Below are positions 9,989 to 59,670 of a DNA stretch of 63,846 nt, piece after piece. The first letter of the stretch is position 1, and each line of letters begins with the position of its first letter. Under the pieces are notes generated by a model, which saw only the letters and a program-made list of their open reading frames with translations, was not told the origin of the DNA and ran no database searches. This DNA is from Dehalococcoidia bacterium (GTDB lineage Bacteria; Chloroflexota; Dehalococcoidia; UBA2979), in the NCBI GenBank assembly GCA_030684635.1, contig JAUXUW010000129.1:1-63846 (forward strand). Reading direction: 5' to 3'. The translations under genes were made by a program, and so were the position numbers.

Positions 9989-11269
9989 TCAGGAGGCCGC
10001 GGCGGCCTGCGTGCCAGCGCCGGCACGTTCCGCGACCAGCTCCTCGTACAGCCGAGCGACCGCCCGGGCGACGGCCGACCAGGCATAGCCCTGCTCCATC
10101 CGCTGCCTGGCGCCCGCGCCGAGGGCGAGGCGGAGCTCCTCGTTGTGGAGCAGCGTCTCGATCTTCTCCGCGAACGGCGTCGGGCAGCGCCACGGGATCA
10201 AGTAGCCCGTCCGCCCGTCCACCACCGTGGAGGCCAGCCCGCCGACCCGGGAAGCCACCACCGGGACGCCGCTGGCCATCGCCTCCACGGCGACGAGGCC
10301 GAACGACTCGTAGAACGACGGCACCGCCACCACGTCCGCCGCCGTGTAGAAGTCGACGAGGACCTCGTGCGGCCGGGGGCCCAGGAAGCGGACGGCATCC
10401 GTGACCCCGACCTGCGCCGCCACAGCCTTGAGCCGGTCGACCTCGGGCGTGGCGCGCTCGTCGCCGCCGATGACGTACAGGACCACGTGCTCCCGGTCGC
10501 TCATCTCCGCGAGCGACCGGATCAGGATGTCCAGCCCCTTCAGCGGTTCAATCCGCCCGATCGCCAGCAGCACCCGCTCGTCCGCGGGGATGCCGAGGCG
10601 CGCGCGCGCCGCAGCCCGGTCGCCCGGGGCGAACTTCGCAAGGTCCACGCCCAGCGGGATCACGGCCACGCGCTGGGCCGGCACCCGGTAGATCTGCTGG
10701 AGGAGCCGTCGCTCGTGTTCGGTGGCGGCGACGATCCGGTCCAGGGTGTGGACCAGGCGCCGCTCCGTCTCCAGCCGGTCCGGGCGCTCGTGCTCGGAGG
10801 CGCGGGCGCGCAACTTCACATCGCCCAGGGTGTGGAACATCGCCGCGTGGGGGATGCCCCACTGCGCTGCGAGGCGCTCGCCGGCTGCGGCCGAGAGCCA
10901 GTAGTGCGAGTGGATGAGGTCGTACGTCACGCCCTCGGCGGCGCGGAACGCCTCCACGCCCTCCGCGAACGCCTCCGTCAGCGCCGCCATCTCCTCCTTT
11001 TCGACGCGGGCGGGGGGGCCCGCGACGACCTGGATGACGCGCGCGCCGGGAGTGAACTCCTCCACCTCCGGCAGGTCGGGGGAGGCGCGGCGGGTGAAGA
11101 TGTCGACCAGGATGCCCAGCGCGCCCAGTTCGCGCGCCACCTCGCGGACGTACACGTTCATCCCGCCCGTCTCGCGCCCACCGAGGGGCGCGAGGGGCGA
11201 GGTGTGCAGCGAGAGCATCGCCACACGCCTCACAACCGGGGCGGGTGAGGCTGGAACGCCGTCCGTCAT
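9989..11269 (-). CDS. GT4 glycosyltransferase, MshA-like
   Basis: 426 aa. The N-terminus RRVAMLSLHTSPLAPLGGRETGGMNVYVREVARELG closely resembles the MshA signature. The C-terminal EsFGLVavEAMASGvPVV is the GT-B retaining motif. Confidence 0.85.
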   Translation of the reverse strand: MTDGVPASPAPVVRRVAMLSLHTSPLAPLGGRETGGMNVYVREVARELGALGILVDIFTRRASPDLPEVEEFTPGARVIQVVAGPPARVEKEEMAALTEAFAEGVEAFRAAEGVTYDLIHSHYWLSAAAGERLAAQWGIPHAAMFHTLGDVKLRARASEHERPDRLETERRLVHTLDRIVAATEHERRLLQQIYRVPAQRVAVIPLGVDLAKFAPGDRAAARARLGIPADERVLLAIGRIEPLKGLDILIRSLAEMSDREHVVLYVIGGDERATPEVDRLKAVAAQVGVTDAVRFLGPRPHEVLVDFYTAADVVAVPSFYESFGLVAVEAMASGVPVVASRVGGLASTVVDGRTGYLIPWRCPTPFAEKIETLLHNEELRLALGAGARQRMEQGYAWSAVARAVARLYEELVAERAGAGTQAAAAS

Positions 11270-12011: not shown

Positions 12012-13073
12012 CTACGCCCAGCCCAGCACGCGCTCCACCGCCTCCGCTTCGGCGGGGGCAGAGTGGCGGGTCACCTCGATCGTCATCGCGGTGTCCGGGT
12101 CCTTCAGGCCGTGGCCGGTCAGCACGCACACCGCTACCTGGCCTGTCAGGTCCACGCCCGCGCGGTGCTGCTTCATGAGGCCGGCGAGCGAGGCGGCCGA
12201 GGCGGGCTCGCAGAAGATGCCCTCGTCTCGACCCAGCCGGCGGTATGCCTCCAGGATCTCGTCGTCCGAGACCGCCGAGATGTTCCCGCCGGAGGAGTCG
12301 CGCGCGTTGATCGCACCCTCCCAGGACGCCGGGTTGCCGATCCGGATCGCCGTGGCGATGGTCTCCGGGTGCTCCACCGGGTGGCCGAGGACCAGCGGCG
12401 CGGCGCCCTCCGCCTGGAAGCCCCACATGCGCGGTTTCCCGCTGGTGCGCTCCAGCCGGTGGTACTCCTCGAATCCCCCCCAGTAGGCGGTGATGTTGCC
12501 GGCGTTGCCGACCGGGATACAGAGCAGGTCGGGCGCGTCACCCAGGTCGTCCACGATCTCGAACGCCGCAGTCTTCTGCCCGGCGATCCGGTGCGGGTTC
12601 ACGGAGTTCACCAGGGCGACCGTGTGCCGCTCCGAGATCTCGCGCACGATCCGCAGTGCGTCATCGAAGGAGCCCTCGATCTGCACGATCTCAGCACCGT
12701 GCATCACGGCCTGCGCCAGCTTACCCATGGCGATCTTGCCGTCCGGCACCACCACGTACGCCTTCAGCCCATGCCGCACCGCGTACGCGGCGGCCGAGGC
12801 GGAGGTGTTGCCGGTGGAGGCGCAGATCACAGCGCGGGCGCCCTCTTCCGCCGCCTTCGCGACCGCCAGCACCATGCCGCGGTCCTTGAACGACCCGGTC
12901 GGGTTCATCGACTCCAGCTTGAAGTAGAGGCCCTTCAGCCCCAGTTCCCCCTCAAGGGCGCGCGAGCGGACGAGCGGCGTGCCGCCCTCTCCCAGCGTGA
13001 CCATCGGCGTCCGGTCCGTCACCGGCAGCAACGAGCGGTAGCGCTCCAGGATGAACCGATTCTCGGTGCTCAC
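12012..13073 (-). CDS. thrC: Threonine synthase (short, housekeeping type)
   Basis: 353 aa with the PLP lysine motif [13 protein letters not shown] start overlaps the upstream ORF stop (GTGA). In an operon with hom. Confidence 0.93.
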
Positions 13074-24510: not shown

Positions 24511-25236
24511 GTGCGCGTCACCGTCCGCCTCTTCGCCAGCCTCCGCGAAGCCGCAGGGGGCGACCGCTTCGACGAGACGTTTGAGGGCGGCCCGGTGACG
24601 ATCACCATGCTCCGCGCGCGCCTCGGCGAGTCGCACCCGGCGCTCCGCCCGTACCTCGAGCGCGTCGCGATCGCCGTGAACGAGGAGTACCGGTTCGACC
24701 ACGCCGGCGAACTACACGATGGCGACACGGTCGCCCTGATCCCGCCGGTCGCGGGTGGCGCCCTGATCCCACCCGTCGCCGGCGGCGCGCCCGAGGTGCC
24801 GCTCTTCCTCGTGACCCGCGACGCACTCGACCCCGTCGCCCTGCGCGCCGCCGTCATCACCCCGGCCAGCGGCGCCTACCTGCTCTTCGAGGGCGTCGTC
24901 CGCGACCACCACGAGGGCCGAGCCGTCGCCCGCCTCGAGTACGAGGCATACGAGGAGATGGCGCTCCGCACGCTGGAGCAGGTCGGGCGCGAGGTGCTGG
25001 AGGCGTACCGGGATCGCGAGGTCTACGCGATCGCCATCCATCACCGCATCGGCGTGTTGGAGGTCGGCGGCGTCTCGCTGCTGGTCGCCATCGCCTCCGC
25101 CCACCGCCAGGACGCCTTCGAGGCCGGCCTTCGCGCGATCGACCGCGTGAAGGAGACCGTGCCGGTGTGGAAGAAGGAGTGGGGTCCGGACGGCTCCCAC
25201 TGGCAGGAAGGCATCGTGCCGAAGCCCGCGGGCTGA
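24511..25236 (+). CDS. MoaD-MoaE fusion protein (molybdopterin synthase sulfur carrier fused to the catalytic subunit)
   Basis: GTG start behind GGAGG. Residues 1-83 are MoaD-like and end in IPPVAGG. Residues from about 100 on are MoaE-like (LEYEAYEEMA...IHHRIGVLEVGGVSLLVAIASAHRQDAFEA...VPVWKKEW). Confidence 0.88.
   Translation: MRVTVRLFASLREAAGGDRFDETFEGGPVTITMLRARLGESHPALRPYLERVAIAVNEEYRFDHAGELHDGDTVALIPPVAGGALIPPVAGGAPEVPLFLVTRDALDPVALRAAVITPASGAYLLFEGVVRDHHEGRAVARLEYEAYEEMALRTLEQVGREVLEAYRDREVYAIAIHHRIGVLEVGGVSLLVAIASAHRQDAFEAGLRAIDRVKETVPVWKKEWGPDGSHWQEGIVPKPAG
24733..24786 (+). repeat. Tandem 27-bp direct repeat encoding ALIPPVAGG twice at the MoaD/MoaE junction
   Basis: gccctgatcccgccggtcgcgggtggc (24733-24759) versus gccctgatcccacccgtcgccggcggc (24760-24786). 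There are 4 differences, all at synonymous third positions. Confidence 0.9.
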
Positions 25237-49965: not shown

Positions 49966-50501
49966 CCCTCCGCCCACTCCGGCCCGCGCACCCGCACGAC
50001 CTCGGCCCGCTCGAGGGCGGGACGCAGGTCGCGCATCGAGGCAATCCGGAGGCCGGTCTGCGGGTGGATGACGTCCCCACCCACCTCCGCGAGCGGCACG
50101 AGCACGAACGACCGCTGGCCCAGCAGCATGTGCGGCACCTGCAGGTCAGCCAGGTCGACCGTCTCGCCCTCGATCAACGCGATGTCGATGTCGAGCGGAC
50201 GCGCCGTCCAGCGCGGCGCGCGGAAGTCGCGGCCCTCCGCCGCCTCCAGGCGCTTCGCGAGGATCAGCAGGTCGCGGGCGTCCAGGTCGGTGACGCCGGA
50301 AACGGCCGCGTTCAGGAATGCCGGCTGGCGCACCACGCCCCACGGCGGCGTCTCGTACAGGGACGACACGCGGTCCACCTCAACGCCGCCCGCACGGAGC
50401 CCGACGACGGCGGCCCGCAGGTGCGCCTCACGGTCGTCGAGGTTGGAGCCCAGCGCCAGCCAGACGCGGCGACGCGGGCGGCCCCGACCGGCCGAGATCA
50501 C
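49962..50501 (-). CDS. folK: 2-amino-4-hydroxy-6-hydroxymethyldihydropteridine pyrophosphokinase
   Basis: GTG at 50499-50501 overlaps the folP stop (GTGA). ...VWLALGSNLDDREAHLRAA...SLYETPPWG...RPLDIDIAL...VPH. Confidence 0.88.
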   Translation of the reverse strand: MISAGRGRPRRRVWLALGSNLDDREAHLRAAVVGLRAGGVEVDRVSSLYETPPWGVVRQPAFLNAAVSGVTDLDARDLLILAKRLEAAEGRDFRAPRWTARPLDIDIALIEGETVDLADLQVPHMLLGQRSFVLVPLAEVGGDVIHPQTGLRIASMRDLRPALERAEVVRVRGPEWAEG

Positions 50502-51340
50502 GGCACGGCCTGGCGCACGACGGCGTCCGCCACGCGCGCGACCTGCACCATCTCGTCCACGTCGTGTACCCGCACCAGGTCGACCCCCTGCTGGATCGCC
50601 AGGGCGACCGTGGCGGCGGTGCCCCACTCACGCTCCTGCGCGGGCCGGTCGATGATGTAGCCGATCGAGGACTTCCGCGAGGTGCCGATCATGAGCGGCC
50701 GGCCCAGGTCGCGCAGTTCGCCCAGGCGCCGGAGCAACTCGAAGTTCTGGACCGGCCCCCACCCGAACCCGAAGCCGGGATCGAGGATGAGCCGCTCGCG
50801 CGGCACCCCGCCGGCGACGGCCGCCGCGATGCACCGCTCGAACCCCGCGCGCGTGTCGCGGATCACGTCGCCACCGAACTCGCGACCACGCTGGTTGTGC
50901 ATCAGGATCGCCGGCGCACCCGCCTGCGCGACCACGCGCGCCATGCCGGCATCGCCGAGGAACCCCGTGACGTCGTTGATGGCGTCCGCACCGTAGTCCA
51001 GGGCACGCCGTGCGACCTCTGCTTTGCTCGTGTCGACGGTGATGGGGATGGAGACGGCCCGACGCACGGCGCCCAGCACCAGCATCAGCCGCCCCCACTC
51101 CGTTTCGGCGTCGATCGCGGCGAACTCCGGGCGCGTGGACTCCGCGCCGAGATCGAGGATGTCCGCCCCCGCCTCCACCATCCGCTCCGCGAGGTGGACC
51201 GCAGCCTGCGGGTCGACGATGCCGTCACCGGAAAAGGAGTCGGGCGTCGCGTTGATGATGCCGACGACGTAGGTCCGCTGCCCCCACTCGAACGTCCGGG
51301 AGCCGATCGTGAGCGGGGCGGGATTCGTCGGGGACACCAT
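50498..51340 (-). CDS. folP: Dihydropteroate synthase
   Basis: 280 aa with GIINATPDSFSGDG...ILDLGAESTRP...INDV...MHN...DPGFGFG. Confidence 0.95.
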   Translation of the reverse strand: MVSPTNPAPLTIGSRTFEWGQRTYVVGIINATPDSFSGDGIVDPQAAVHLAERMVEAGADILDLGAESTRPEFAAIDAETEWGRLMLVLGAVRRAVSIPITVDTSKAEVARRALDYGADAINDVTGFLGDAGMARVVAQAGAPAILMHNQRGREFGGDVIRDTRAGFERCIAAAVAGGVPRERLILDPGFGFGWGPVQNFELLRRLGELRDLGRPLMIGTSRKSSIGYIIDRPAQEREWGTAATVALAIQQGVDLVRVHDVDEMVQVARVADAVVRQAVP

Positions 51341-51771
51341 CAGACCACCTCGATCGTCTCTTCTTCGATCACCCCGCCGCGACGGATGTGGTACGCGCGC
51401 ACGTCCGGTGGATCCTGAGCGAGCGACACGAGGATGTAGAACGTCCCCGGGAACATCGGCTCCTGCTCCACCTCGCCGGGCGGGAAGAACGCCATCCTCA
51501 CGTCGGTCGGTGACGGGCGCGCCGGCGACCCAACGTGCGAGTGGTAGATCGCGAACAGCGTCTCGCCGGAGGCGTCACGGGCGCGTTCCAGCCGCATCAT
51601 CTGCAGCGGGTTCATCTCGTAGCGGTAGGGGCTGGCGGCGTCATTCTTCACACGATGGACGGCCGTCGGGACGCCGTCGGCGGCGTGCACCATGCCACAG
51701 CACTCGTCCGGCAGGTTCTCCTGAGCGTGCGCCACCATCTCGTCGATGATCGGCTGCGGGATGCGGGGCAT
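51340..51771 (-). CDS. JAMM/MPN+ metalloprotease (Mec+-like)
   Basis: 143 aa with an E-x-CG motif (PDECCGMV) and JAMM motif IYHSHVGSPARPSPTD. Its stop shares 1 nt with the folP start. Confidence 0.88.
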   Translation of the reverse strand: MPRIPQPIIDEMVAHAQENLPDECCGMVHAADGVPTAVHRVKNDAASPYRYEMNPLQMMRLERARDASGETLFAIYHSHVGSPARPSPTDVRMAFFPPGEVEQEPMFPGTFYILVSLAQDPPDVRAYHIRRGGVIEEETIEVV

Positions 51772-52190: not shown

Positions 52191-53015
52191 CTATCGCTCG
52201 ATCGGCACGCCGACCATGGAGCCGTACTCGGTCCATGAGCCGTCGTAGTTGCGGACGTCCGGATAGCCCAGGATGTGCTTCAGCACGAACCAGGTGTGGC
52301 TGGAGCGCTCGCCGATGCGGCAGTAGGCGATCGTCGGGGTGTCCGACTTCAGGCCCTGCGTGCCGTAGAGCGTCTCGAGCTCGTCCGTAGAGCGGAACGT
52401 GCCGTCCTCGTTCACCGCGCGCGCCCACGGGATGTTCTTCGCACCGGGGATGTGGCCGCCGCGCTGCGCCGTCTCCGTCATGCCGGGAGGCGCAATCACC
52501 TCGCCGGAGTACTCGGCGGGGCTCCGCACGTCCACCAGTTGCACGGGCTGCTTCAGCGCCTGCAGCACGTCGTCACGCACCGCGCGCAGCGCCGGGTTCG
52601 GCTCCTTCGCGGAGTAGGAGGCGGCGGGGATGCTCGGCTCCGCCGTGGTCGTGGGGCGGTTGTCGGCGAGCCACTTCACGCGACCGCCGTTCATCAGCGA
52701 GACCTTCTCGTGGCCGTACAGTTCGGTCAGCCAGAGCGCGTACGCCGCGAACCAGTTGTTGTTGTCGCCGTACAGCACGATGTGCGTGTCGTTCGAGATG
52801 CCGGACTTCGCCATCAACGCCTCGAAGTCGGCCTTCGTCAGGATGTCCCGGCGCACGTTGTCCTGGAGCTGGCTGGTCCAGTTCCACGCCACCGCACCCT
52901 CAATGTGGCCCTCGCGGTAGGCCTCGGTGTCCACGTCCACCTCAACCAGGCGGACACCGGGGTCGTTCTTGTGCTCCTGGACCCACTCCACGGAGACGAG
53001 CTTGTCAGTCATCAT
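52191..53015 (-). CDS. Thiosulfate/3-mercaptopyruvate sulfurtransferase (tandem rhodanese)
   Basis: 274 aa with two rhodanese domains. Active-site loop CRIGERSS in the second domain. Confidence 0.92.
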   Translation of the reverse strand: MMTDKLVSVEWVQEHKNDPGVRLVEVDVDTEAYREGHIEGAVAWNWTSQLQDNVRRDILTKADFEALMAKSGISNDTHIVLYGDNNNWFAAYALWLTELYGHEKVSLMNGGRVKWLADNRPTTTAEPSIPAASYSAKEPNPALRAVRDDVLQALKQPVQLVDVRSPAEYSGEVIAPPGMTETAQRGGHIPGAKNIPWARAVNEDGTFRSTDELETLYGTQGLKSDTPTIAYCRIGERSSHTWFVLKHILGYPDVRNYDGSWTEYGSMVGVPIER

Positions 53016-53064: not shown

Positions 53065-54000
53065 CTACCACCAGAGCTTTTCTGCAACCTGTTCGCGGAT
53101 CTCTTCGTATTCGGTGTTCCAGAGGCCGGTGGAGAGGTACTTCCATCCTCCATCGGCAAGCAGACAGACGATCTTTCCGGATTCCATCTTCTCGGCCGTG
53201 CGCTGCGCGGCGCGCACCACGGAGCCGGAAGACACGCCCGCGAAGACGCCGGTCTTCTGCGTCAGTTCTTTCGTCATCGCGAAGGAGGTCTTGGAGTCGA
53301 CCACGATCCGGCCGTCCAGCACGGTGTCGTCGAAGACAGGCGGGATGTAACCATCCTCCAGCGCGCGGAGCCCCTGCACCAGATCGCCCGGGTGTGGCGC
53401 CGCCGCCACCACTCGGATCGCCGGGTTGTGCTCCTTCAGCCGCCGCCCGTTGCCGGTGAGCGTCCCGCCGGTGCCGAGGCCCGCGACGAACACGTCCAGG
53501 TCCGGCAGGTCCGCGATGATCTCGGGGGCCGTCGTCTCGTAGTGCGCGCGGGGGTTCATCTCGTTCTCGTACTGGAACAGCATCACCCAGTCCGGGTTGG
53601 CGTCCCGGATCTCCGTCGCCATCCGCACCGCGCCGTTGGAACCCAGGTCGCCCGGCGACAGGATGATCTCCGCGCCGTACGCCTCCAACAGTTGCGTGCG
53701 CTCCCGCGACACCGCGTCCGGCATCACGATCTTCACGCGGTACCCGCGCAGCCCGCCGATCATCGCCAGGGCGATGCCGGTGTTGCCGGACGATGGCTCC
53801 ACGATCGTGGCGCCCGGCGTCAGCCGCCCGGTGCGCTCCGCATCCTCGATCATGTACTTCGCGATGCGGTCCTTCACGGAGCCGGTGGGGTTCTCGCCCT
53901 CCAGCTTCGCCCAGATCTCCACGCGCGGGTTCGGCGACATCACGGAGACGTCGACGAGCGGCGTGTTGCCGATCATCTCCACTACGCTCCGGTACTTCAT
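53065..54000 (-). CDS. cysM: CysM-type cysteine synthase (O-phosphoserine / CysO-thiocarboxylate-dependent type)
   Basis: ATG at 53998-54000. NPTGSVKDR PLP lysine, SSGNTG, WVMLFQYENEMN, ADGGWKYLSTG and the C-terminal ...LWW. By my recollection this is collinear with M. tuberculosis CysM (Rv1336). Confidence 0.9.
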   Translation of the reverse strand: MKYRSVVEMIGNTPLVDVSVMSPNPRVEIWAKLEGENPTGSVKDRIAKYMIEDAERTGRLTPGATIVEPSSGNTGIALAMIGGLRGYRVKIVMPDAVSRERTQLLEAYGAEIILSPGDLGSNGAVRMATEIRDANPDWVMLFQYENEMNPRAHYETTAPEIIADLPDLDVFVAGLGTGGTLTGNGRRLKEHNPAIRVVAAAPHPGDLVQGLRALEDGYIPPVFDDTVLDGRIVVDSKTSFAMTKELTQKTGVFAGVSSGSVVRAAQRTAEKMESGKIVCLLADGGWKYLSTGLWNTEYEEIREQVAEKLWW

Positions 54001-54016: not shown

Positions 54017-54295
54017 TTAAATCCCGCCCGCAAGGGCGGGGAGGAAAGAGACGGAGTCGCCGTCGCTGAGCGGGGTGTCCTTGCCGCCCAGGTAACGCAC
54101 GTCCTCGTCGTTCAGGTAGATGTTCACGAACCGTCGCAGGTCGCCCTGCTCGTCCATGATGCGCGTGGCGAAGCCGGGGTAGTCCCGCTCGATGTTGTCG
54201 ATCAACTCGCCAACGGTCTTGCCGTCGGCCGCGAACTCCCGCTGGCCATTCACGGCCTGCTGGATGACGGAGGTGACGTGTACGGTCACCGGCAT
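54017..54295 (-). CDS. CysO/MoaD/ThiS-family sulfur-carrier protein, C-terminus ...ALAGG-I
   Basis: 92 aa, MPVTVHV...RRFVNIYLNDEDVRYLGG...DSVSFLPALAGGI. CysO-like throughout, with one extra residue after Gly-Gly. I checked the codons. Confidence 0.85.
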   Translation of the reverse strand: MPVTVHVTSVIQQAVNGQREFAADGKTVGELIDNIERDYPGFATRIMDEQGDLRRFVNIYLNDEDVRYLGGKDTPLSDGDSVSFLPALAGGI

Positions 54296-54407
54296 CGGTC
54301 AGTCCCTTCCCTGTACGTACGCCCCGAATCTCGGTGGCGTCCGGGAACCCCTCGAGGTGCCCGCGCGGTTTCGGCCGCGATCCCCGGCAATCGTGGTCAC
54401 GAAGGCG

Positions 54408-55271
54408 CTAGGCGTGTGCGCCCGCGACCGGCATCTCCAGCGGCGCAGAACCGCAGAACTGGTCGTAGTCGATGAGCTCCGTCACCGTCGGGTTCAGGCC
54501 GCACAACGGGCAGTTCGGGTCCTGCCGCGTCTTCATCGTGCGGAACTCCATGGTCAGCGCGTCGATGAGCAGCAGGCGGTTCACCAGCGACTCGCCCACG
54601 CCCAGGATCTGCTTGAACACCTCGGTCGCCTGGATGGAACCGACGATGCCGGTAATGGCGCCCAGCACGCCCGCCTCGGCGCAGGAGGGCACCAGGCCCG
54701 GCGGGGGCGGATCCGGGTAGAGGCAGCGGTAGCAGCCCTTGCCCGGCTGGTAGACCGTCGCCTGGCCATCGAACAGCAGGATCGCACCGTCCACCAGCGT
54801 CTTGCCGGCGAGGTACGAGGCGTCGTTCACCAGGTAGCGCGTGGCGAAGTTGTCCGCGCCGTTCACGACGATGTCGTACTGCGGGATGATCTCCATGGCG
54901 TTGTCGCTGGTGATCGGCATGTGGTGCAGCACCACGTTCACGTGCGGGTTGTAGGCCCGCAGCGTCTCCTGCGCGGAGATGATCTTCGGCCGGCCCACGT
55001 CCGCGGTCTGGTGCAGCACCTGCCGCTGGAGGTTGGAGAGGTCGACGGTGTCGAACTCCACCAGCCCGATCGTGCCTACGCCGGCCAGTGCCAGGTAGAG
55101 CGCCACGGGCCCGCCGAGGCCGCCCGCGCCGATCACCAGCACCTTCGCGTTGCGCAGCTTCCGCTGACCCTGCGGCCCGACCTGCGGCATGATGATGTGC
55201 CGCGAGTACCGCATCACCTCGTCCGGGGTCAGCGCCACCGAGACCGGCGCGCCCTGTGGTGCGTTCGTCAT
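54408..55271 (-). CDS. ThiF/MoeB/HesA-type E1-like adenylyltransferase (no rhodanese domain)
   Basis: 287 aa with VLVIGAGGLGGPVALYLALAGVG, DLSNLQRQ and two CxxC pairs (CYRC, CPLC). The ATG overlaps the upstream carrier stop (ATGA). Confidence 0.92.
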   Translation of the reverse strand: MTNAPQGAPVSVALTPDEVMRYSRHIIMPQVGPQGQRKLRNAKVLVIGAGGLGGPVALYLALAGVGTIGLVEFDTVDLSNLQRQVLHQTADVGRPKIISAQETLRAYNPHVNVVLHHMPITSDNAMEIIPQYDIVVNGADNFATRYLVNDASYLAGKTLVDGAILLFDGQATVYQPGKGCYRCLYPDPPPPGLVPSCAEAGVLGAITGIVGSIQATEVFKQILGVGESLVNRLLLIDALTMEFRTMKTRQDPNCPLCGLNPTVTELIDYDQFCGSAPLEMPVAGAHA

Positions 55272-55558
55272 GATCGTCCCCCTGCTCCACCCGCCAGCGC
55301 GGGGATCACTGCCACCTGGTCCCCCTCGGACACCGGGGTGTCCACGCCAGCCAGCTCATGAATCTCCTGGTTATTCAGGTACACGTTGATGTGGGTCGGC
55401 ACGTGCCGGTCACTGTCGTAGACCAGGTCCGCGAACCCCGGGTACAACGCCTCCACCGCGTCCAGCACCTCGCCCACGGTCGCGCCCTCAACCTGCACGC
55501 GCTCGTGCATGGCCGTGATGCGGCGGAAGGGGGACGGGATGTAGACACTCACCGGCAT
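55268..55558 (-). CDS. MoaD/ThiS-family sulfur-carrier protein, C-terminus ...ALAGG-AGGRS
   Basis: 96 aa, MPVSVYIPSP...HINVYLNNQEIHELAG...DQVAVIPALAGGAGGRS. The Gly-Gly is followed by 5 residues that include a second Gly-Gly. Confidence 0.8.
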   Translation of the reverse strand: MPVSVYIPSPFRRITAMHERVQVEGATVGEVLDAVEALYPGFADLVYDSDRHVPTHINVYLNNQEIHELAGVDTPVSEGDQVAVIPALAGGAGGRS

Positions 55559-55603
55559 GCCGATTGTTGCTCCAACAGATTGACTTCAGGTTTCAGGTGG
55601 GCG

Positions 55604-56545
55604 CTACAGCGCAACCGTCAGGTATCGCTCGCCGGTGTCGCAGAGCATGGTCACCACCCGTTTGCCGGGCCCCAGCTCACGCGCCACCTTCAACGCGGCC
55701 CACACATTCGCGCCCGAGGAGACACCCACCAAGAGCCCCTCCTCGCGCGTGAGGCGCTTCGTCATCTCGTACGCATCCTCGTCGCGCACACCGATGACCG
55801 AGGCGTACACGTCCCGGTTCAGGACCCCCGGGATGAACGAGGCGCCAATGCCCTGGATGCCGTGGACGCCCGCGCGCCCACCCTGCAGGACCGGCGCACG
55901 GGCGGGCTCCACGGCCACGATGCGCGCCTGGATGCCCGCATCCCGCAGCGCCTCGCCGACCCCGGTGATCGTGCCGCCGGTGCCGACGCCAGCGACGAAC
56001 GCGTCCAGCCGGCCCCCCGTCGCCTCGATGATCTCCACGGCCGTCGTGTCGCGGTGCGCCTGTGGGTTCGCCGGGTTCTCGAACTGCCCGAGCATCACGT
56101 AGTGCTTCTCGTCCACCATCTCCTGCGCGGCGTACACCGCCCCGGTCATGCCCTCGATGGCGGGGGTCAGGACCAGGTCAACGCCGAAACGTTCCAGCAG
56201 GCGACGGCGCTCCAGGGACATATCCTCCGGCATGGTCAGCACCAGCCGGTAGCCCTTCGTCGCGCACACCATCGCCAGGCCGATCCCGGTGTTCCCGGAG
56301 GTTGGCTCCACCAGCGTGTCCCCAGGCTTGATCTTCCCCTCGCGCTCCGCGGCTTCCACCATCGCCAGGGCGATGCGGTCCTTCACGGAGCCTGCCGGGT
56401 TGAACACCTCGAACTTGCCGAGGATTTCGGCGGCGTCCGGCCCCGCGATGCGGCTCAGCCGGACGAGCGGCGTGTTGCCGATCAGGTCCAGTACGGAGTC
56501 CGCGATCGCCGGCTGACGGGTCGTCAGGTGATCCGGGGCTACCAC
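55604..56545 (-). CDS. cysK: Cysteine synthase A-type (O-acetylserine sulfhydrylase family)
   Basis: 313 aa (GTG start) with NPAGSVKDR and TSGNTG, and a CysK-like C-terminal half. Confidence 0.9.
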   Translation of the reverse strand: MVAPDHLTTRQPAIADSVLDLIGNTPLVRLSRIAGPDAAEILGKFEVFNPAGSVKDRIALAMVEAAEREGKIKPGDTLVEPTSGNTGIGLAMVCATKGYRLVLTMPEDMSLERRRLLERFGVDLVLTPAIEGMTGAVYAAQEMVDEKHYVMLGQFENPANPQAHRDTTAVEIIEATGGRLDAFVAGVGTGGTITGVGEALRDAGIQARIVAVEPARAPVLQGGRAGVHGIQGIGASFIPGVLNRDVYASVIGVRDEDAYEMTKRLTREEGLLVGVSSGANVWAALKVARELGPGKRVVTMLCDTGERYLTVAL

Positions 56546-56608
56546 CGTGGCGCGCTCCTGCCATCGCCGGACCAGTGCGGGGCCGGCGAAGATGCTCAGT
56601 GCAGTCGA

Positions 56609-57049
56609 TTAGATGCTGTAGTTCACCACTGCTGTGCGCTCGTGCTCCCGCTCGTGCTCGGCCAGGGCCGCCAGCGAGACAGCAGCCAGTTTGCGCCGCA
56701 TGTCATCGTAAATCTCTTGCCAGACCCATTCCTGGCCGCAGATCGCCTCCGCGCCCGGTTCATGGTTGTCCAGACACTGAAGCGGGGCAAGCGACCCCTC
56801 CAGCGCTTCCAACAGGTGGAGGAGACAGATCTCCTCCGCCGGCTTCGCCAGCAGGTGCCCACCACCCGGCCCTCGGACGCTCCTCACGAACCCTGCCCGC
56901 CGCAATTGCGCAAGCAGATGATCGAGGTAGGACTCCGGGATCTGGCGGCGCTTCGCGATCTCGGCGCGCTGCACCGGGCCTTCGCCCTCGTGCTTCGCGA
57001 GGTCGATCATGGCGCGGACACCGTAGTCACCCTTGGTACTGAGCAGCAT
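56609..57049 (-). CDS. Rrf2-family transcriptional regulator (CymR/IscR-like)
   Basis: 146 aa, MLLSTKGDYGVRAMIDLA...IAKRRQIPESYLDHLLAQLRRAGFVRSVRGPGGG. Confidence 0.9.
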   Translation of the reverse strand: MLLSTKGDYGVRAMIDLAKHEGEGPVQRAEIAKRRQIPESYLDHLLAQLRRAGFVRSVRGPGGGHLLAKPAEEICLLHLLEALEGSLAPLQCLDNHEPGAEAICGQEWVWQEIYDDMRRKLAAVSLAALAEHEREHERTAVVNYSI

Positions 57050-57088
57050 CGAGACCCCGGTGGGTATTCACGACCAATTCAGTCGACA

Positions 57089-57097
57089 TTGTACCAG
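57089..57097 (-). promoter_or_regulatory. Candidate extended -10 promoter element for the Rrf2-cysK transcription unit
   Basis: The minus strand reads TGGTACAAT (57097-57089), i.e. TGn plus TACAAT, about 40 nt upstream of the Rrf2 start. An AT-richer TGAAT-N6-TGAAT direct repeat lies just downstream of it. Confidence 0.35.
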
Positions 57098-57131
57098 AAG
57101 ATCCCGGCCACGCAGGTCATGAATGGATCGG

Positions 57132-57479
57132 CTAGTGCGGCGCGCCGCCTCGGGCCGACCGGATGACTGCCCCCCAGCCGGCCACGGCCCCCAGCAACAG
57201 CGGGAGACCGATCGAGGCGATCGCCAGCAGCCCCAGCACCGTCATCCCGGTAGCGGCCATTGCGAGGAGCCAGGTACCTGCCTCCGAGTCCGGCCGCAGC
57301 GAGCCGAGCACGGCGAGGATCGGGAGCAGGGCAAAGAGCGCCGCGAACGCGGCAACCCGCAGCCTCGCGCCGTCGGTGTCGACCGCACCCTGCGCGATCA
57401 GCGACAGATACAGCACGGCGACGGCACCCGAAAGCGCCGCCGCCGCAAACCCTGCTGCCGAGATGCGCCCGCGCTTCAC
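57132..57479 (-). CDS. Hypothetical small membrane protein (about 4 TM)
   Basis: 115-aa Ala/Leu-rich hydrophobic ORF, 12 nt downstream of the third carrier gene. Confidence 0.45.
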   Translation of the reverse strand: MKRGRISAAGFAAAALSGAVAVLYLSLIAQGAVDTDGARLRVAAFAALFALLPILAVLGSLRPDSEAGTWLLAMAATGMTVLGLLAIASIGLPLLLGAVAGWGAVIRSARGGAPH

Positions 57480-57491
57480 GGTGGGCCGGGC

Positions 57492-57770
57492 CTACGCCCC
57501 GCCCGCCACCGCCGGGACGATGGAAACCTCGTCGCCACTCTTGAGGGCCGTGCCCAGGCCCTGTAGGAAGCGCACATCCTCGCCGTTCACGTAGATATTC
57601 ACGAAGCGGCGGATCTCGCCGCCCTCGTCCAGCAGGCGCTCGCGCATGCCGGGGAACTGAGTCTCCAGCGCGCCCACCACGGTCTGGAGGTCCGCCGCGT
57701 CGATCTTCGCGGTGTCCTGGTTCTGGGTGAGCCCGCGGAGCGGGGTCGGGATCTTCACGGTCACGGCCAT
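57492..57770 (-). CDS. CysO/MoaD/ThiS-family sulfur-carrier protein, C-terminus ...AVAGG-A
   Basis: 92 aa, MAVTVKIPTP...RRFVNIYVNGEDVRFLQG...DEVSIVPAVAGGA. Close paralog of 54017-54295, with one extra Ala after Gly-Gly. Confidence 0.85.
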   Translation of the reverse strand: MAVTVKIPTPLRGLTQNQDTAKIDAADLQTVVGALETQFPGMRERLLDEGGEIRRFVNIYVNGEDVRFLQGLGTALKSGDEVSIVPAVAGGA

Positions 57771-57820: not shown

Positions 57821-58066
57821 CTACCCCTCGACGACGTCGCCGAGGGTGGCGTCGTCCACGCGGACGCCCTTCGAGCGCGCCCAGTCGAGCGCGCGCTGGA
57901 TCTCGTCGTCGTCACCCTCCAGGCCAAGGATGACCCAGCCGATGCTCTGGTCGATCGCCGCCATGCGGATGCTGGTGACCACCTTGAACAGGTGGCCCAT
58001 CTGGTAGACCACCGGCTCGCGGACCTGCTCCGCGCCGAAGGTCAGGCGGACGTGCTTCTCCGGCAT
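57821..58066 (-). CDS. Stand-alone NIL-domain protein
   Basis: 81 aa, ...VRLTFGAEQVREPVVYQMGHLFKVVTSIRMAAID...GWVILGLEGDDDEIQRALDWARSKGVRVD. It follows the NIL-domain pattern known from MetN C-termini. Confidence 0.75.
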   Translation of the reverse strand: MPEKHVRLTFGAEQVREPVVYQMGHLFKVVTSIRMAAIDQSIGWVILGLEGDDDEIQRALDWARSKGVRVDDATLGDVVEG

Positions 58067-58076
58067 ACGGTCCCCC

Positions 58077-59336
58077 TTACGCCGTCACGGGCTGGCCGCG
58101 CTGCGCTTCACGCGCGGCGCGGGCCTCGATGAATGCGTTGACGCTCGGCTGGATGTGGAGCGGTTCGACGACCTCGTCCATCACCGCCTCGATCGTCTTG
58201 AGGCCGCCGCCGCTGATGATCGCGACCGTTTCCTCGTCCCGCTTGATGAACCCGGAGGCCACCAGCTTCTTGAGGCAGGCGATCGTCACGCCGCCAGCCG
58301 TCTCGGCAAAGATGCCCTCGGTCTCGGCGAGCAGTTTGATGCCGTCCACGATCTCCGGGTCCGTCGCCATCTCCGCGCCGCCGCCGGTCTCTTCCATCTG
58401 CTTCAGCGCGTAGTAGCCATCCGCCGGGTTCCCGATCGCGAGCGACTTCGCGATCGTGTTCGGCTTCTGCGGCACGAAGTTCAGCGTGTCGTTCGCGAAC
58501 GCGGTCGCGATCGGCGAACAGCCGGTCGCCTGCGCGCCGGACATCTTCGTGTGTGGCTTCTCGATCAGGCCGACCTGGTGGAACTCCTTCAGCCCCTTCC
58601 AGATCTTCGTGAACATGGAGCCAGACGCCATCGGCGCCACGATGTGGTCGGGGGCGCGCCAGCCCAGTTGCTCCGCGATCTCGTACCCGAGCGAACGCGA
58701 GCCTTCCGCGTAGTACGGGCGGACGTTGATGTTCACGAAGGCCCAGTTGAATTGCATCGAGAGCTCGGTACAGAGCCGGTTCACGTCGTCGTAGGAGCCG
58801 CGCACCGTCACCAGGTGCGGGTCGTAGATCGCGCTGCCGACGACCTTGCCGCGCTCCAGGTCGTCCGGGATGAAGACGAAGCAGTCCATCCCGGCGCCCG
58901 CCGCGTGCGCCGCCACGGAGTTCGCGAGGTTCCCCGTGGAGGCGCACGCGATGGCGTCGAAGCCGAACTCACGCGCCTTCGCGATCGCCACGGAGACCAC
59001 GCGGTCCTTGAAGGACCAGGTCGGGTTCACGGTGTCGTTCTTGATCCACAGCGTGTCGAGGCCGATCGCCTTCGCCAGCCGGTCGGCGCGGAGCAACGGC
59101 GTGAAGCCCGTGCCCAGGTCCACCTTGAATGCCGGGTCGCAGGGCAGGAACGGGGCGTAGCGCCAGAGGGTGTTCGGGCCCGCCTCGATGGCGTCGCGGG
59201 TCGCCGCCTCCCGGATCGCGTCGTAGTCATAGGCGACTTCCAGCGGGCCGAAGCAGAACTCACAGGAGAAGATCGGCGCGATCGCGTACTCGCGGCCGCA
59301 CTCCCGACACTTCAGGGCACGATTGAACGAAGACAT
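58077..59336 (-). CDS. Threonine-synthase-like PLP enzyme, long form with an N-terminal zinc ribbon (second ThrC paralog)
   Basis: 419 aa with CRECGREY...CEFCFGP ribbon, PLP lysine motif NPTWSFKDR, and ASTGNLANS. Confidence 0.9.
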   Translation of the reverse strand: MSSFNRALKCRECGREYAIAPIFSCEFCFGPLEVAYDYDAIREAATRDAIEAGPNTLWRYAPFLPCDPAFKVDLGTGFTPLLRADRLAKAIGLDTLWIKNDTVNPTWSFKDRVVSVAIAKAREFGFDAIACASTGNLANSVAAHAAGAGMDCFVFIPDDLERGKVVGSAIYDPHLVTVRGSYDDVNRLCTELSMQFNWAFVNINVRPYYAEGSRSLGYEIAEQLGWRAPDHIVAPMASGSMFTKIWKGLKEFHQVGLIEKPHTKMSGAQATGCSPIATAFANDTLNFVPQKPNTIAKSLAIGNPADGYYALKQMEETGGGAEMATDPEIVDGIKLLAETEGIFAETAGGVTIACLKKLVASGFIKRDEETVAIISGGGLKTIEAVMDEVVEPLHIQPSVNAFIEARAAREAQRGQPVTA

Positions 59337-59505
59337 GGCGATGTTCCTTGGGCAGAACTGGTGACTGAGGGGTGTCGTCGGTGACGCCCGATCCGCAGCG
59401 CCGTGGAGGCGCGCGATCGGGCTAGCGCATCGCCATGCGGCCCATCGAGGGCGGGAGCGGGCCGGCGAAGGAGGTGGAGACGGGCATGTGCGGTTCGCGC
59501 CTTCC

Positions 59506-59630
59506 GTTCATCTTTCCCGCCTCGGAGGTTCCGAGGGTCGGGCCGGAGGGAGCACCGTGTCCGCCCCGGCGAAGGGCGACCGGTTGCCGCGGTTTCTCAG
59601 GGCCGGAACCCTCCACCGCTCTGGATGAAC
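59506..59630 (-). promoter_or_regulatory. SAM-I (S-box) riboswitch aptamer
   Basis: The minus strand reads GUUCAUCCAGAGCGGUGGAGGGUUCCGGCCCUGAGAAACCGCGGCAACC-(P3)-GGUGCUCCCUCCGGCC-(P4)-GGGAAAGAUGAAC. P1 is UUCAUC/GAUGAA, and the AGAG, GGAGGG, GCCC, UGAGAA and GCAACC core blocks are in the canonical order. It sits in the 5-prime leader of the ThrC-like gene. Confidence 0.85.
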
Positions 59631-59670
59631 CGCCGAGGGGCCACCGGCCCGCCCGACGCGTATCGGTTCG

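What the first reader, a model, noticed from the sequence alone, without database searches (positions are those of the whole stretch)
54017..57520. All three free-standing carriers have a masked Gly-Gly terminus (GG-I, GG-AGGRS, GG-A)
- **Observation.** I read the terminal codons directly.
  - 54017-54034 encodes A-L-A-G-G-I-stop.
  - 55268-55300 encodes A-L-A-G-G-A-G-G-R-S-stop.
  - 57492-57509 encodes V-A-G-G-A-stop.
- **Why it matters.** Adenylation and thiocarboxylation need a free C-terminal Gly-Gly. Each carrier must therefore be trimmed first, presumably by the single JAMM protease at 51340-51771.
- **Precedents.** Wolinella HcyS-Ala/HcyD and Pseudomonas QbsE-CF/QbsD.
- **What is unusual.**
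  - Three different masks in one locus is unusual. The MoaD-MoaE fusion elsewhere in the window adds a fourth.
  - Carrier 2 has two nested Gly-Gly sites (GG-AGG-RS), so two alternative mature ends are possible.
- **Implication.** Proteolytic unmasking could be a regulatory gate, or a specificity code for which carrier is active.
Basis: partly seen in the sequence, partly recalled or inferred. Interest (0 to 1): 0.7.

Follow-up and report, generated by a model that had tools for sequence, protein, structure and literature searches.

The report
Capped sulfur-carrier proteins needing protease trimming
Three small sulfur-carrier proteins in a Chloroflexota cysteine/methionine gene cluster do carry extra residues after their Gly-Gly end, but such caps are a known, common and fast-changing feature of this protein family, so the finding is real but ordinary.

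Summary
Three ThiS/MoaD-family genes end in GG-I, GG-AGGRS and GG-A, and a MoaD-MoaE fusion lies elsewhere in the window.

The locus is a conserved sulfur-amino-acid cluster of Dehalococcoidia-like Chloroflexota:
- a CysO/CysM-type pair;
- an E1, a rhodanese and a Mec+-like JAMM protease;
- an ordinary CysK and an Rrf2 regulator;
- a SAM-riboswitch-controlled MetM/MetO-like unit.

In 79 species-level loci with the same gene order:
- Caps on carriers 1 and 3 are usually one or two residues, vary widely in sequence, and changed state at least 8-9 times.
- The JAMM gene is present whether or not caps are.
- Carrier 2 never ends in bare GG. It is fused in frame to the E1 in 49 loci and split in 30.

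In the window, the carrier 2 tail is the old linker. Its "nested GG" codons (GGG GGA) form the E1 Shine-Dalgarno site, and its stop overlaps the E1 start (ATGA).

Capped carriers served by one JAMM and one MoeZ are already published for Pseudomonas, Streptomyces and Actinoplanes.

Trimming by the JAMM is plausible but inferred. A "specificity code" is not supported. This is a new member of a known kind, of low to moderate interest.

The parts
54017..54295 (-). Carrier 1. CysO-like ThiS/MoaD sulfur carrier, 92 aa, ends PALAGG-I. The cap codon ATT is at 54020-54022 and the stop TAA at 54017-54019.
   Evidence: Sequence read directly. Pfam ThiS E = 6e-16, with the profile end at residue 91. Best solved-structure match is M. 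tuberculosis CysO, 3DWG chain C, E = 5.6e-24, which ends in bare GG.
55268..55558 (-). Carrier 2. ThiS/MoaD carrier, 96 aa, ends PALAGG-AGGRS. The tail codons are at 55271-55285. The stop TGA overlaps the E1 start (ATGA). The tail is homologous to the linker of carrier-E1 fusions in relatives.
   Evidence: sequence; Pfam; tail not conserved; fused in 49 of 79 loci; junction DNA.
57492..57770 (-). Carrier 3. MetO-like ThiS/MoaD carrier, 92 aa, ends PAVAGG-A. The cap codon GCG is at 57495-57497.
   Evidence: sequence; Pfam, E = 8.5e-15. It lies downstream of the NIL and ThrC-like genes, behind a SAM riboswitch.
51340..51771 (-). JAMM/MPN metalloprotease, Mec+-like, 143 aa, with the motif E..HSHVGSPARPSPTD. 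It is the candidate for both cap removal and release of Cys or Hcy from carrier adducts.
   Evidence: Pfam Prok-JAB E = 1.5e-20. It is the only HxHx7SxxD ORF in the window. Sources name it M67 metallopeptidase or [CysO sulfur-carrier protein]-S-L-cysteine hydrolase. It is present in nearly all related loci regardless of caps.
52191..53015 (-). Two-domain rhodanese sulfurtransferase. It is the probable persulfide donor and replaces the rhodanese domain that MoeZ carries in actinobacteria.
   Evidence: Pfam Rhodanese E = 7e-35, two stretches. NCBIfam gives a 3-mercaptopyruvate sulfurtransferase-like match below cutoff.
53065..54000 (-). CysM-type cysteine synthase, partner of carrier 1. The likely start is the ATG at 54000, 16 nt after the carrier 1 stop and preceded by AGGAG.
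   Evidence: Pfam PALP. Best solved-structure match is M. tuberculosis CysM (O-phosphoserine sulfhydrylase) at 295 bits, against 239 bits for the next family. Junction read.
54408..55271 (-). E1-like adenylyltransferase (ThiF/MoeB/UbaA type), 287 aa, with no rhodanese domain.
   Evidence: Pfam ThiF E = 7e-81. NCBIfam matches to MoeB, MoeZ and UbaA. It is the only E1 in the window.
55604..56545 (-). Ordinary CysK (O-acetylserine sulfhydrylase A). It is not expected to need a carrier.
   Evidence: NCBIfam cysK 429.7 bits, above the 351 cutoff. Best solved-structure matches are standard CysK enzymes.
56609..57049 (-). Rrf2-family (CymR/IscR-like) transcriptional regulator.
   Evidence: Pfam Rrf2 E = 6e-37. 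NCBIfam gives a CymR-like match below cutoff.
57821..58066 (-). Free-standing NIL-domain protein between the ThrC-like gene and carrier 3.
   Evidence: Pfam NIL E = 6e-15. Carrier-NIL fusions exist elsewhere in the family.
58077..59336 (-). ThrC-like PLP enzyme, a probable MetM-type homocysteine synthase that depends on a carrier thiocarboxylate.
   Evidence: NCBIfam thrC family match. A SAM riboswitch lies immediately upstream. A second, shorter ThrC homologue sits at 12012-13073. The MetM/MetO pathway is described in bioRxiv 10.1101/2024.10.14.618325 and PMC12172450.
59505..59631 (-). SAM riboswitch (S-box) leader of the ThrC-like, NIL and carrier 3 genes.
   Evidence: Rfam RF00162, 64.8 bits against a gathering score of 44.4, E = 8.5e-13, full model.
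24511..25236 (+). MoaD-MoaE fusion, the fourth masked GG. A 27-nt tandem duplication at 24732-24788 encodes ALIPPVAGG-ALIPPVAGG.
   Evidence: Pfam ThiS 5-83 plus MoaE 101-215. Translation. Tandem Repeats Finder score 86, the best in the window. The duplication is shared by four close relatives.

Best explanation
**What the locus is.** It is a conserved sulfur-amino-acid cluster that makes cysteine and homocysteine from carrier-protein thiocarboxylates.
- Carrier 1 works with a CysM-type synthase, as in the M. tuberculosis CysO/CysM pathway.
- Carrier 3 works with a SAM-riboswitch-controlled ThrC-like enzyme, as in the Streptomyces MetO/MetM pathway.
- All carriers share one E1, one rhodanese and one JAMM protease.

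**How the JAMM fits in.** These pathways need it in every catalytic cycle. The product is first formed as carrier-GG-Cys or carrier-GG-Hcy and must be hydrolysed after the GG. An enzyme that cuts GG|X will also remove a short genetically encoded residue after the GG.

**What the caps are.** They are tolerated precursor tails, like the extra residue on ubiquitin precursors. They drift freely in sequence and are repeatedly gained or lost. They are not a code.

**What the carrier 2 tail is.** In most relatives carrier 2 is the N-terminal domain of the E1, joined by a variable linker after an invariant IPALAGG. In the window's lineage the fusion has split. The AGGRS tail is the remnant of that linker and now holds the E1 ribosome-binding site and the ATGA stop/start overlap.

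**Shown versus inferred.**
- Shown: the sequences, the family assignments, the synteny, the variability of the tails, the fusion/split pattern and the junction anatomy.
- Inferred: that the JAMM is the trimming enzyme, that the fused carrier 2 is cleaved, and that the tails are selectively neutral.
For: **Family and pathway assignments**
- All three carriers are ThiS-family, with the profile ending at the first GG.
- Carrier 1's best solved-structure match is M. tuberculosis CysO, and its neighbour's is M. tuberculosis CysM.
- The JAMM motif is intact, and only one JAMM and one E1 occur in the window.
- A SAM riboswitch lies upstream of the ThrC-like, NIL and carrier 3 genes.

**Comparison across 79 species-level loci with the same gene order**
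- Carrier 1 tails are 1 residue in 34 loci, 2 residues in 8, absent in 27 and longer in 9. There are 13 different first residues.
- Carrier 3 tails are 1 residue in 24 loci, 2 residues in 7 and absent in 31.
- At least 8 and 9 state changes are needed on an E1+CysM tree.
- The JAMM is present in the 21 loci where carriers 1 and 3 both end in bare GG.
- Carrier 2 is fused in 49 loci, split in 30 and never bare. IPALAGG is conserved, while the linker or tail is hypervariable.

**Junction anatomy**
- In about 20 of 31 split loci the carrier 2 stop overlaps the E1 start. The G-rich Shine-Dalgarno site lies in the tail or GG codons.
- In the window the sequence is GGG GGA CGA TCA TGA, with the ATG inside TCATGA.

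**Duplicated terminal motifs**
- They recur in the window's MoaD-MoaE, in carrier 2 of L013, L017 and L019, and in carrier 1 of L022 and L072.
- They are hard to tolerate unless something cuts after a GG.

**Literature**
- Mec+ hydrolyses CysO-Cys (PMC3227635).
- QbsD trims QbsE-CF, and capped PtmS2 and PtmS3 depend on the JAMM PtmS1 (PMC6006322).
- CxnE carries ten residues after its GG, next to a JAMM (PMC5925218).
- Mec is required for MetO maturation (bioRxiv 10.1101/2024.10.14.618325).
- The MoaX fusion is cleaved after its GG (PMC4326299).
Against: - No cleavage was or could be measured here. The JAMM's role in trimming rests on gene clustering and on precedents from other phyla.
- In the window's clade all 30 split-carrier-2 species keep a tail on carrier 1, and 25 of 26 keep one on carrier 3. 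Most tails are exactly one residue. This could reflect selection for a cap rather than drift. I argue that common high-GC tail codons (Ala, Ile, Val, Leu CTN, Met, Asn) cannot reach a stop in one step, but I did not model this formally.
- The first tail residue is biased to Ala, Ser and Cys, which hints at some constraint.
- Nothing shows that carrier 2 is cleaved from the E1 in the fused species. It could act as an uncleaved domain.
- The tree is a quick neighbour-joining tree on two proteins, so the counts of state changes are approximate.
- The 50%-identity representatives may over-sample long or read-through gene calls.
Confidence: 0.65

Rival explanations
1. Regulatory gate or specificity code. 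The different caps are selected features. They let the JAMM decide when, or which, carrier becomes active.
For: - Caps are retained on all three carriers throughout the window's clade.
- One-residue tails dominate.
- Four pathways (Cys, Met, Moco and the unknown role of carrier 2) would depend on one protease.
Against: - Cap residues differ between close orthologues, with 13 different first residues for carrier 1.
- Caps were lost or gained at least 8-9 times, and 21 species with the same cluster have none on carriers 1 and 3.
- Caps of the same genome do not co-vary.
- The carrier 2 tail is explained at the nucleotide level by the overlapping E1 start.
- Transcriptional control is already present through the SAM riboswitch and the Rrf2 regulator.
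Confidence: 0.1
2. The caps are removed, but by a general carboxypeptidase or other housekeeping peptidase. The JAMM serves only to hydrolyse carrier-Cys and carrier-Hcy adducts.
For: - Most caps on carriers 1 and 3 are a single residue, which any carboxypeptidase could remove.
- JAMM presence is independent of cap presence.
- The protease that cleaves M. tuberculosis MoaX is still unidentified (PMC4326299).
Against: - Longer tails, duplicated motifs and in-frame fusions need an endopeptidase that recognises the GG.
- Characterised systems use the clustered JAMM for trimming (PMC6006322; GapMind preprint on Mec and MetO).
- An unspecific exopeptidase would not stop at the GG.
Confidence: 0.12
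3. The carriers, especially carrier 2, also act as ubiquitin-like protein modifiers (SAMP/TtuB-like). The E1 would be the activating enzyme and the JAMM the processing and deconjugating enzyme. The caps and the carrier-E1 fusion would be the equivalents of ubiquitin precursor tails and fusions.
For: - NCBIfam SAMP1 scores are 61.5 for carrier 2 and 62.5 for carrier 3, just above the cutoff of 60. The JAMM's only NCBIfam match is desampylase. The E1 matches UbaA at E = 2.7e-95.
- The E1 lacks a rhodanese domain, like UbaA.
- Carrier 2 has no obvious dedicated sulfur-accepting enzyme, because its neighbour is an ordinary CysK.
Against: - The SAMP1 scores are borderline, and the desampylase match is far below its cutoff (55 against 130).
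- No E2- or E3-like genes were seen.
- The cluster context is entirely sulfur-amino-acid biosynthesis.
- This reading does not exclude the main explanation.
Confidence: 0.1
4. Artefact. The extensions or the carrier 2/E1 split come from sequencing or assembly errors, for example in the G5 run, or from wrong gene calls in a metagenome-assembled genome.
For: One extra G in the GGGGG run at the carrier 2/E1 junction would recreate an in-frame fusion.
Against: - An independent genome at about 95% nucleotide identity has identical tails.
- Thirty species show split forms with different junction sequences and proper ATGA overlaps.
- Dozens of independent assemblies carry the same kinds of caps.
Confidence: 0.02

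Closest known systems
M. tuberculosis CysO / CysM / Mec+ / MoeZ thiocarboxylate-dependent cysteine pathway
   Same: - Carrier 1 and its neighbouring synthase are the best sequence matches to CysO and CysM.
- A JAMM hydrolase and an E1 lie in the same cluster.
- The JAMM is named CysO-S-L-cysteine hydrolase by one source.
- Mec+ hydrolyses the CysO-Cys adduct (PMC3227635).
   Different: - M. tuberculosis CysO ends in bare GG, whereas carrier 1 here has one extra residue.
- The E1 has no fused rhodanese domain. A separate two-domain rhodanese is encoded instead.
- The cluster also holds a second carrier, an ordinary CysK, an Rrf2 regulator and a methionine branch.
Capped sulfur carriers trimmed by a clustered JAMM: QbsE-CF/QbsD (Pseudomonas), PtmS2-MV and PtmS3-C with PtmS1 (Streptomyces platensis), CxnE+10/CxnF (Actinoplanes), HcyS-Ala/HcyD (Wolinella; from my own knowledge, paper not held)
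   Same: - Residues follow the GG, a JAMM gene is nearby, and a MoeZ-type E1 is shared.
- S. platensis already shows two differently capped carriers with a single JAMM and a single MoeZ (PMC6006322, PMC5925218).
   Different: - Most of those systems serve secondary metabolites.
- Here three capped carriers and a MoaD-MoaE fusion sit in primary metabolism of an uncultured Chloroflexota lineage.
- One of the caps is a remnant of a carrier-E1 fusion linker.
Streptomyces albulus MetM / MetO homocysteine pathway (Hasebe et al. 2024, as described in bioRxiv 10.1101/2024.10.14.618325 and PMC12172450)
   Same: - A ThrC homologue lies next to a small sulfur carrier.
- A SAM riboswitch lies upstream.
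- Mec and MoeZ are listed as required, with Mec needed for MetO maturation.
   Different: - A free-standing NIL-domain gene lies between the synthase and the carrier.
- The original paper could not be read.
Ubl-ThiF (carrier-E1) fusion proteins and the MoaX MoaD-MoaE fusion
   Same: - Relatives of carrier 2 are N-terminal domains of the E1. This architecture was noted by Iyer et al. 2006 (PMC1779556).
- The window's MoaD-MoaE fusion parallels MoaX, which must be cut after its GG to work (PMC4326299).
   Different: - In the window carrier 2 is split from the E1.
- The fused Ubl described in 2006 was called distinct from ThiS and was found with thiamine genes.
- Here the domain keeps an invariant ThiS-type GG and sits in a cysteine/methionine cluster.
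- Cleavage of these fusions is untested.
Eukaryotic ubiquitin precursors (own knowledge)
   Same: - The modifier is made with an extra, species-variable C-terminal residue or as a fusion protein.
- A GG-specific protease, including JAMM-type enzymes, exposes the GG.
   Different: - There is no evidence of protein conjugation here.
- The carriers are predicted to carry sulfur as thiocarboxylates.

Membership tests
ThiS/MoaD sulfur-carrier (beta-grasp) family | Significant match to the family profile over the whole domain | tested here: met
   PF02597 E = 6e-16, 8.8e-13 and 8.5e-15 for the three carriers. The MoaD part of the fusion scores 7.9e-15.
ThiS/MoaD sulfur-carrier (beta-grasp) family | Gly-Gly at the position of the profile's last two residues | tested here: met
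   The profile end (76/76) aligns to residue 91 (the second G) in all three. G90 and G91 are invariant in orthologues.
ThiS/MoaD sulfur-carrier (beta-grasp) family | The Gly-Gly is the free C-terminus of the gene product | tested here: not met
   One, five and one extra residues are encoded after the GG. This is met only after a presumed proteolytic step.
CysO/CysM/Mec+ cysteine pathway | CysO-like carrier adjacent to a CysM-type (O-phosphoserine) sulfhydrylase | tested here: met
   Best solved-structure matches are M. tuberculosis CysO (E = 5.6e-24) and M. tuberculosis CysM (295 bits against 239 for the next). The genes are 16 nt apart.
CysO/CysM/Mec+ cysteine pathway | JAMM hydrolase with an intact metal-binding motif in the cluster | tested here: met
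   Prok-JAB E = 1.5e-20 and the motif HSHVGSPARPSPTD.
CysO/CysM/Mec+ cysteine pathway | MoeZ-type E1 with a fused rhodanese domain | tested here: not met
   The E1 is 287 aa with a ThiF domain only. The rhodanese is a separate gene.
CysO/CysM/Mec+ cysteine pathway | Thiocarboxylate formation, adduct formation and hydrolysis | not testable with these tools
   This needs biochemistry.
Capped carriers processed by a JAMM (QbsE/QbsD type) | Residues encoded after the GG, plus a JAMM gene in the same cluster | tested here: met
   The arrangement is conserved in related loci.
Capped carriers processed by a JAMM (QbsE/QbsD type) | The JAMM removes the cap and exposes the GG | not testable with these tools
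   Only indirect support was found: tolerated duplications and fusions of the GG end.
MetM/MetO homocysteine pathway | ThrC homologue next to a sulfur carrier, under methionine/SAM control | tested here: met
   NCBIfam thrC family match. Carrier 3 lies two genes downstream. SAM riboswitch at 64.8 bits. A second ThrC homologue lies elsewhere in the window.
MetM/MetO homocysteine pathway | Sequence orthology to S. albulus MetM and MetO | not tested
   The reference sequences and the original paper were not available.
Ubl-E1 fusion proteins | Carrier domain and E1 in one reading frame | tested here: not met
   In the window the E1 is in the -1 frame with an ATGA overlap. The feature is met in 49 of 79 related loci.
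SAMP-type ubiquitin-like protein modifiers | Match to the SAMP1 model above its cutoff | tested here: inconclusive
   Carrier 1 scores 57.1 (below the cutoff of 60). Carriers 2 and 3 score 61.5 and 62.5 (just above).
SAMP-type ubiquitin-like protein modifiers | Covalent conjugation to target proteins | not testable with these tools
   This needs proteomics.

The most novel reading that the evidence does not exclude
The JAMM may be an obligatory maturation hub. Carrier 2 would then be a ubiquitin-like precursor that is normally made as a carrier-E1 polyprotein and released by cleavage after its GG. In that case one protease would control four sulfur pathways: cysteine, methionine, molybdopterin, and whatever carrier 2 serves, possibly including protein modification. 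The caps in the window's clade would be kept by selection as a safeguard against premature activation. That would make this a bacterial counterpart of ubiquitin-precursor processing in primary metabolism.
Probability: 0.12. Interest if true: 0.6.

Novelty: new member of a known kind. Interest (0 to 1): 0.3.

Why it matters
The finding adds an uncultured Chloroflexota lineage to the organisms that make cysteine and homocysteine through protein thiocarboxylates.

It also shows that capped or fused GG ends are the rule rather than the exception in this carrier subfamily. That matters for genome annotation and for pathway-prediction tools.
- These carriers are often labelled molybdopterin synthase subunits.
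- The ThrC-like enzyme is often labelled threonine synthase.

Anyone expressing these proteins should note that the carriers need trimming before they can be activated.

The repeated switching between fused and split carrier-E1 genes gives a small, clean example of how a gene fission leaves a peptide tail. That tail is really the next gene's ribosome-binding site.

None of this changes current understanding of the chemistry.

Tried and rejected
- **Second JAMM or E1 in the window.** None was found by motif search or by relaxed phmmer. The rest of the genome is unknown.
- **Co-variation of caps.** I tested whether carrier 1 and carrier 3 caps of the same genome co-vary, which would suggest co-evolution with JAMM specificity or gene conversion. 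They do not: 8 matches against 7.4 expected, p = 0.47.
- **Conservation of the second GG of carrier 2.** It appears only in the nearest relatives, at shifting positions.
- **Carrier 2 as partner of the adjacent cysteine synthase.** Rejected, because that enzyme is an ordinary CysK.
- **Assembly error at the G5 run.** Rejected on independent genomes and on the diversity of junctions.
- **Programmed -1 frameshift.** A shift at the GGGGG run would recreate the carrier-E1 fusion, because the E1 frame is open 84 nt upstream of its start. There is no supporting evidence and I did not pursue it.
- **Papers not held.** The MetM/MetO paper (PMC11497804) and the Wolinella HcyS/HcyD paper (PMC3089676) could not be read. 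Statements about them rest on citing papers or on my own knowledge.
- **No structure prediction was run.** It would not show cleavage.

Full report
**1. Observation**

On the minus strand the window encodes three small proteins.
- Carrier 1: 54017-54295, 92 aa, ending ..FLPALAGG-I.
- Carrier 2: 55268-55558, 96 aa, ending ..VIPALAGG-AGGRS.
- Carrier 3: 57492-57770, 92 aa, ending ..IVPAVAGG-A.

One trivial slip: 54017-54034 holds six codons, not seven.

All three match Pfam ThiS. The last profile position falls on residue 91, so the first GG is the canonical one and the residues after it are real extensions.

Two further claims also hold.
- The JAMM gene at 51340-51771 has an intact HSHx7SxxD motif. 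It is the only such ORF in the window, and there is only one E1.
- The MoaD-MoaE fusion lies at 24511-25236.

The window is a complete 63,846-nt contig of an NCBI metagenome-assembled Dehalococcoidia bacterium, with 69% G+C. A different genome at about 95% nucleotide identity (HGW-Chloroflexi-9) has exactly the same three tails. The stops are therefore not errors.

**2. What the locus is**

Gene order on the minus strand:
1. SAM riboswitch (59505-59631; 64.8 bits)
2. ThrC-like enzyme
3. NIL-domain protein
4. Carrier 3
5. A small membrane ORF
6. Rrf2 regulator
7. CysK
8. Carrier 2
9. E1
10. Carrier 1
11. CysM-type synthase
12. Two-domain rhodanese
13. JAMM

Assignments:
- Carrier 1's best solved-structure match is M. 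tuberculosis CysO (E = 5.6e-24). Its neighbour's best match is M. tuberculosis CysM, at 295 bits against 239 for the next family. This pair is a CysO/CysM system.
- The other synthase is an ordinary CysK.
- The riboswitch-controlled ThrC-like gene with a carrier matches the MetM/MetO homocysteine route described for Streptomyces albulus. In that route Mec and MoeZ are also required, and Mec is needed to mature MetO (bioRxiv 10.1101/2024.10.14.618325; PMC12172450).
- A second, shorter ThrC homologue at 12012-13073 is probably the true threonine synthase.

**3. Comparison with relatives**

Searches with each carrier returned hundreds to thousands of Chloroflexota/Dehalococcoidia proteins. Among the listed orthologues the body of the protein and the ..PA[LV]AGG motif are conserved. 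What follows the GG is not.

I fetched 80 species-representative genome loci and mapped all eleven proteins onto them. The gene order is almost invariant.

Tail statistics across those loci plus the window:

| Carrier | No tail | 1 residue | 2 residues | Longer | Fused to E1 | Different first residues |
|---|---|---|---|---|---|---|
| 1 | 27 | 34 | 8 | 9 | 0 | 13 |
| 3 | 31 | 24 | 7 | 4 | 0 | 8 |
| 2 | 0 | 0 | 10 | 22 | 49 | 7 |

The table counts every locus in which the carrier could be scored. The tree counts below use the 79 loci that have both E1 and CysM.

On a neighbour-joining tree of E1+CysM, the minimum numbers of state changes are:
- 8 for the carrier 1 tail (present in 51 loci, absent in 27);
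- 9 for the carrier 3 tail (present in 34, absent in 30);
- 6 for carrier 2 fused versus split (49 fused, 30 split).

The JAMM is present wherever the contig reaches that far. This includes the 21 loci whose carriers 1 and 3 both end in bare GG.

Caps of carriers 1 and 3 within a genome do not co-vary (p = 0.47).

A wider sample gives the same picture. It comprised the 148 new proteins among the 150 best 50%-identity representatives for a profile of the three carriers.
- Only 34 of the 135 with the terminal motif end in bare GG.
- The rest carry short tails or are fused to ThiF (7), NIL (4), PALP, rhodanese or a second ThiS domain.

**4. Carrier 2 is a split E1 domain**

In 49 loci the carrier 2 domain and the E1 share one reading frame. 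An invariant VIPALAGG is followed by a hypervariable linker of 0-18 residues rich in Ala, Ser, Asp and Gly.

The window belongs to the mostly monophyletic group in which the two are separate genes.

The window junction reads GGT GGA GCA GGG GGA CGA TCA TGA.
- The E1 ATG lies inside TCATGA, so stop and start overlap.
- GGGGGA sits 6 nt upstream as the Shine-Dalgarno site.

About 20 of 31 split loci show the same ATGA or ATGnnnTGA overlap, with the G-rich site inside the tail or GG codons. This also explains why so many tails end in Arg or Ser (CGA TGA, TCA TGA).

The "nested GG" is therefore most simply a ribosome-binding site read in the carrier's frame. It is not conserved as a peptide feature.

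**5. Mechanism**

*Established knowledge.*
- E1 adenylation needs the free carboxylate of the terminal Gly.
- Mec+ hydrolyses the CysO-Cys adduct after the GG (PMC3227635).

*Published precedents for cap removal by a clustered JAMM.*
- QbsD, and PtmS1 with the capped carriers PtmS2 (GG-MV) and PtmS3 (GG-C) (PMC6006322).
- CxnE with ten extra residues next to the JAMM CxnF (PMC5925218).
- Mec for MetO (GapMind preprint).
- The M. tuberculosis MoaX fusion must be cut after its GG, by a protease not yet identified (PMC4326299).

*My inference.*
- The JAMM is needed in every turnover to release Cys or Hcy from carrier-GG-amino acid.
- The same activity removes encoded tails, so tails cost little and drift.

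*Indirect support.* Tandem duplications of the whole terminal motif recur and would otherwise be inactivating.
- The window's MoaD-MoaE reads ALIPPVAGG-ALIPPVAGG. It arises from a 27-nt repeat that is the top tandem repeat in the window and is shared by four relatives.
- Carrier 2 in L013, L017 and L019, and carrier 1 in L022 and L072, show similar duplications.

**6. What remains open**

- The window's clade keeps tails on all three carriers almost without exception, mostly exactly one residue and biased to Ala, Ser and Cys. Drift can explain this, because the usual high-GC tail codons cannot mutate to a stop in one step. I did not test selection formally.
- Whether fused carrier 2 is cleaved, and what carrier 2 serves, is unknown. 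Its neighbour CysK should not need it.
- A ubiquitin-like modifier role is not excluded. The SAMP1 model scores are borderline and the E1 resembles UbaA.

**7. Verdict**

- The claims of unusualness, a specificity code and alternative mature ends are not supported.
- This is a new member of a known kind, namely capped sulfur carriers with a JAMM. One modestly interesting twist is that a cap is the relic of a carrier-E1 fusion.

Noticed in passing
window 24732-24788 (+), inside the MoaD-MoaE fusion at 24511-25236: A 27-nt tandem duplication (2.1 copies, 86% match, the best tandem repeat in the window) duplicates the MoaD terminal motif as ALIPPVAGG-ALIPPVAGG. Four close relatives share it. Similar duplications of the GG end occur in carriers of related loci: carrier 2 in L013, L017 and L019, and carrier 1 in L022 and L072. 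Why this motif duplicates so often is unexplained.
   Followed up: partly
window 59505-59631 (-): A SAM riboswitch (RF00162, 64.8 bits) lies directly upstream of the ThrC-like gene. This marks the ThrC-like, NIL and carrier 3 unit as methionine biosynthesis. The gene is probably a MetM-type homocysteine synthase that annotation pipelines name threonine synthase.
   Followed up: partly
L014, L020, L021, L024-L026, L028-L031 and about 40 further loci, near locus position 10000: In 49 of 79 related species carrier 2 and the E1 form one in-frame protein. An invariant VIPALAGG is followed by a 0-18 residue variable linker. Whether this fusion is cleaved is unknown.
   Followed up: yes
window 55271-55290 (-): The E1 gene is in the -1 frame relative to carrier 2, and that frame is open 84 nt upstream of the E1 start. 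A GGGGG run sits in the overlap. One extra G, or a -1 ribosomal slip there, would yield a carrier-E1 fusion protein. This is speculative.
   Followed up: no
window 57821-58066 (-); proteins P0337, P0352, P0423, P0442, P0450: A free-standing NIL-domain protein sits between the ThrC-like gene and carrier 3. In other lineages the carrier is fused through its GG to a NIL domain. The role of NIL in this pathway is unknown.
   Followed up: no
window 12012-13073 (-): A second, shorter ThrC homologue (353 aa) is probably the real threonine synthase. It lies in a run of genes that may be the threonine branch.
   Followed up: no
window 51340 (-): The JAMM stop overlaps the start of a dihydropteroate synthase gene (50498-51340, Pterin_bind). 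Some database gene calls merge the two. The link between folate synthesis and this cluster, if any, is unexplained.
   Followed up: no
window 57132-57479 (-): A 115-aa hydrophobic ORF with no Pfam match lies between carrier 3 and the Rrf2 regulator gene. It was not checked for conservation in the related loci.
   Followed up: no
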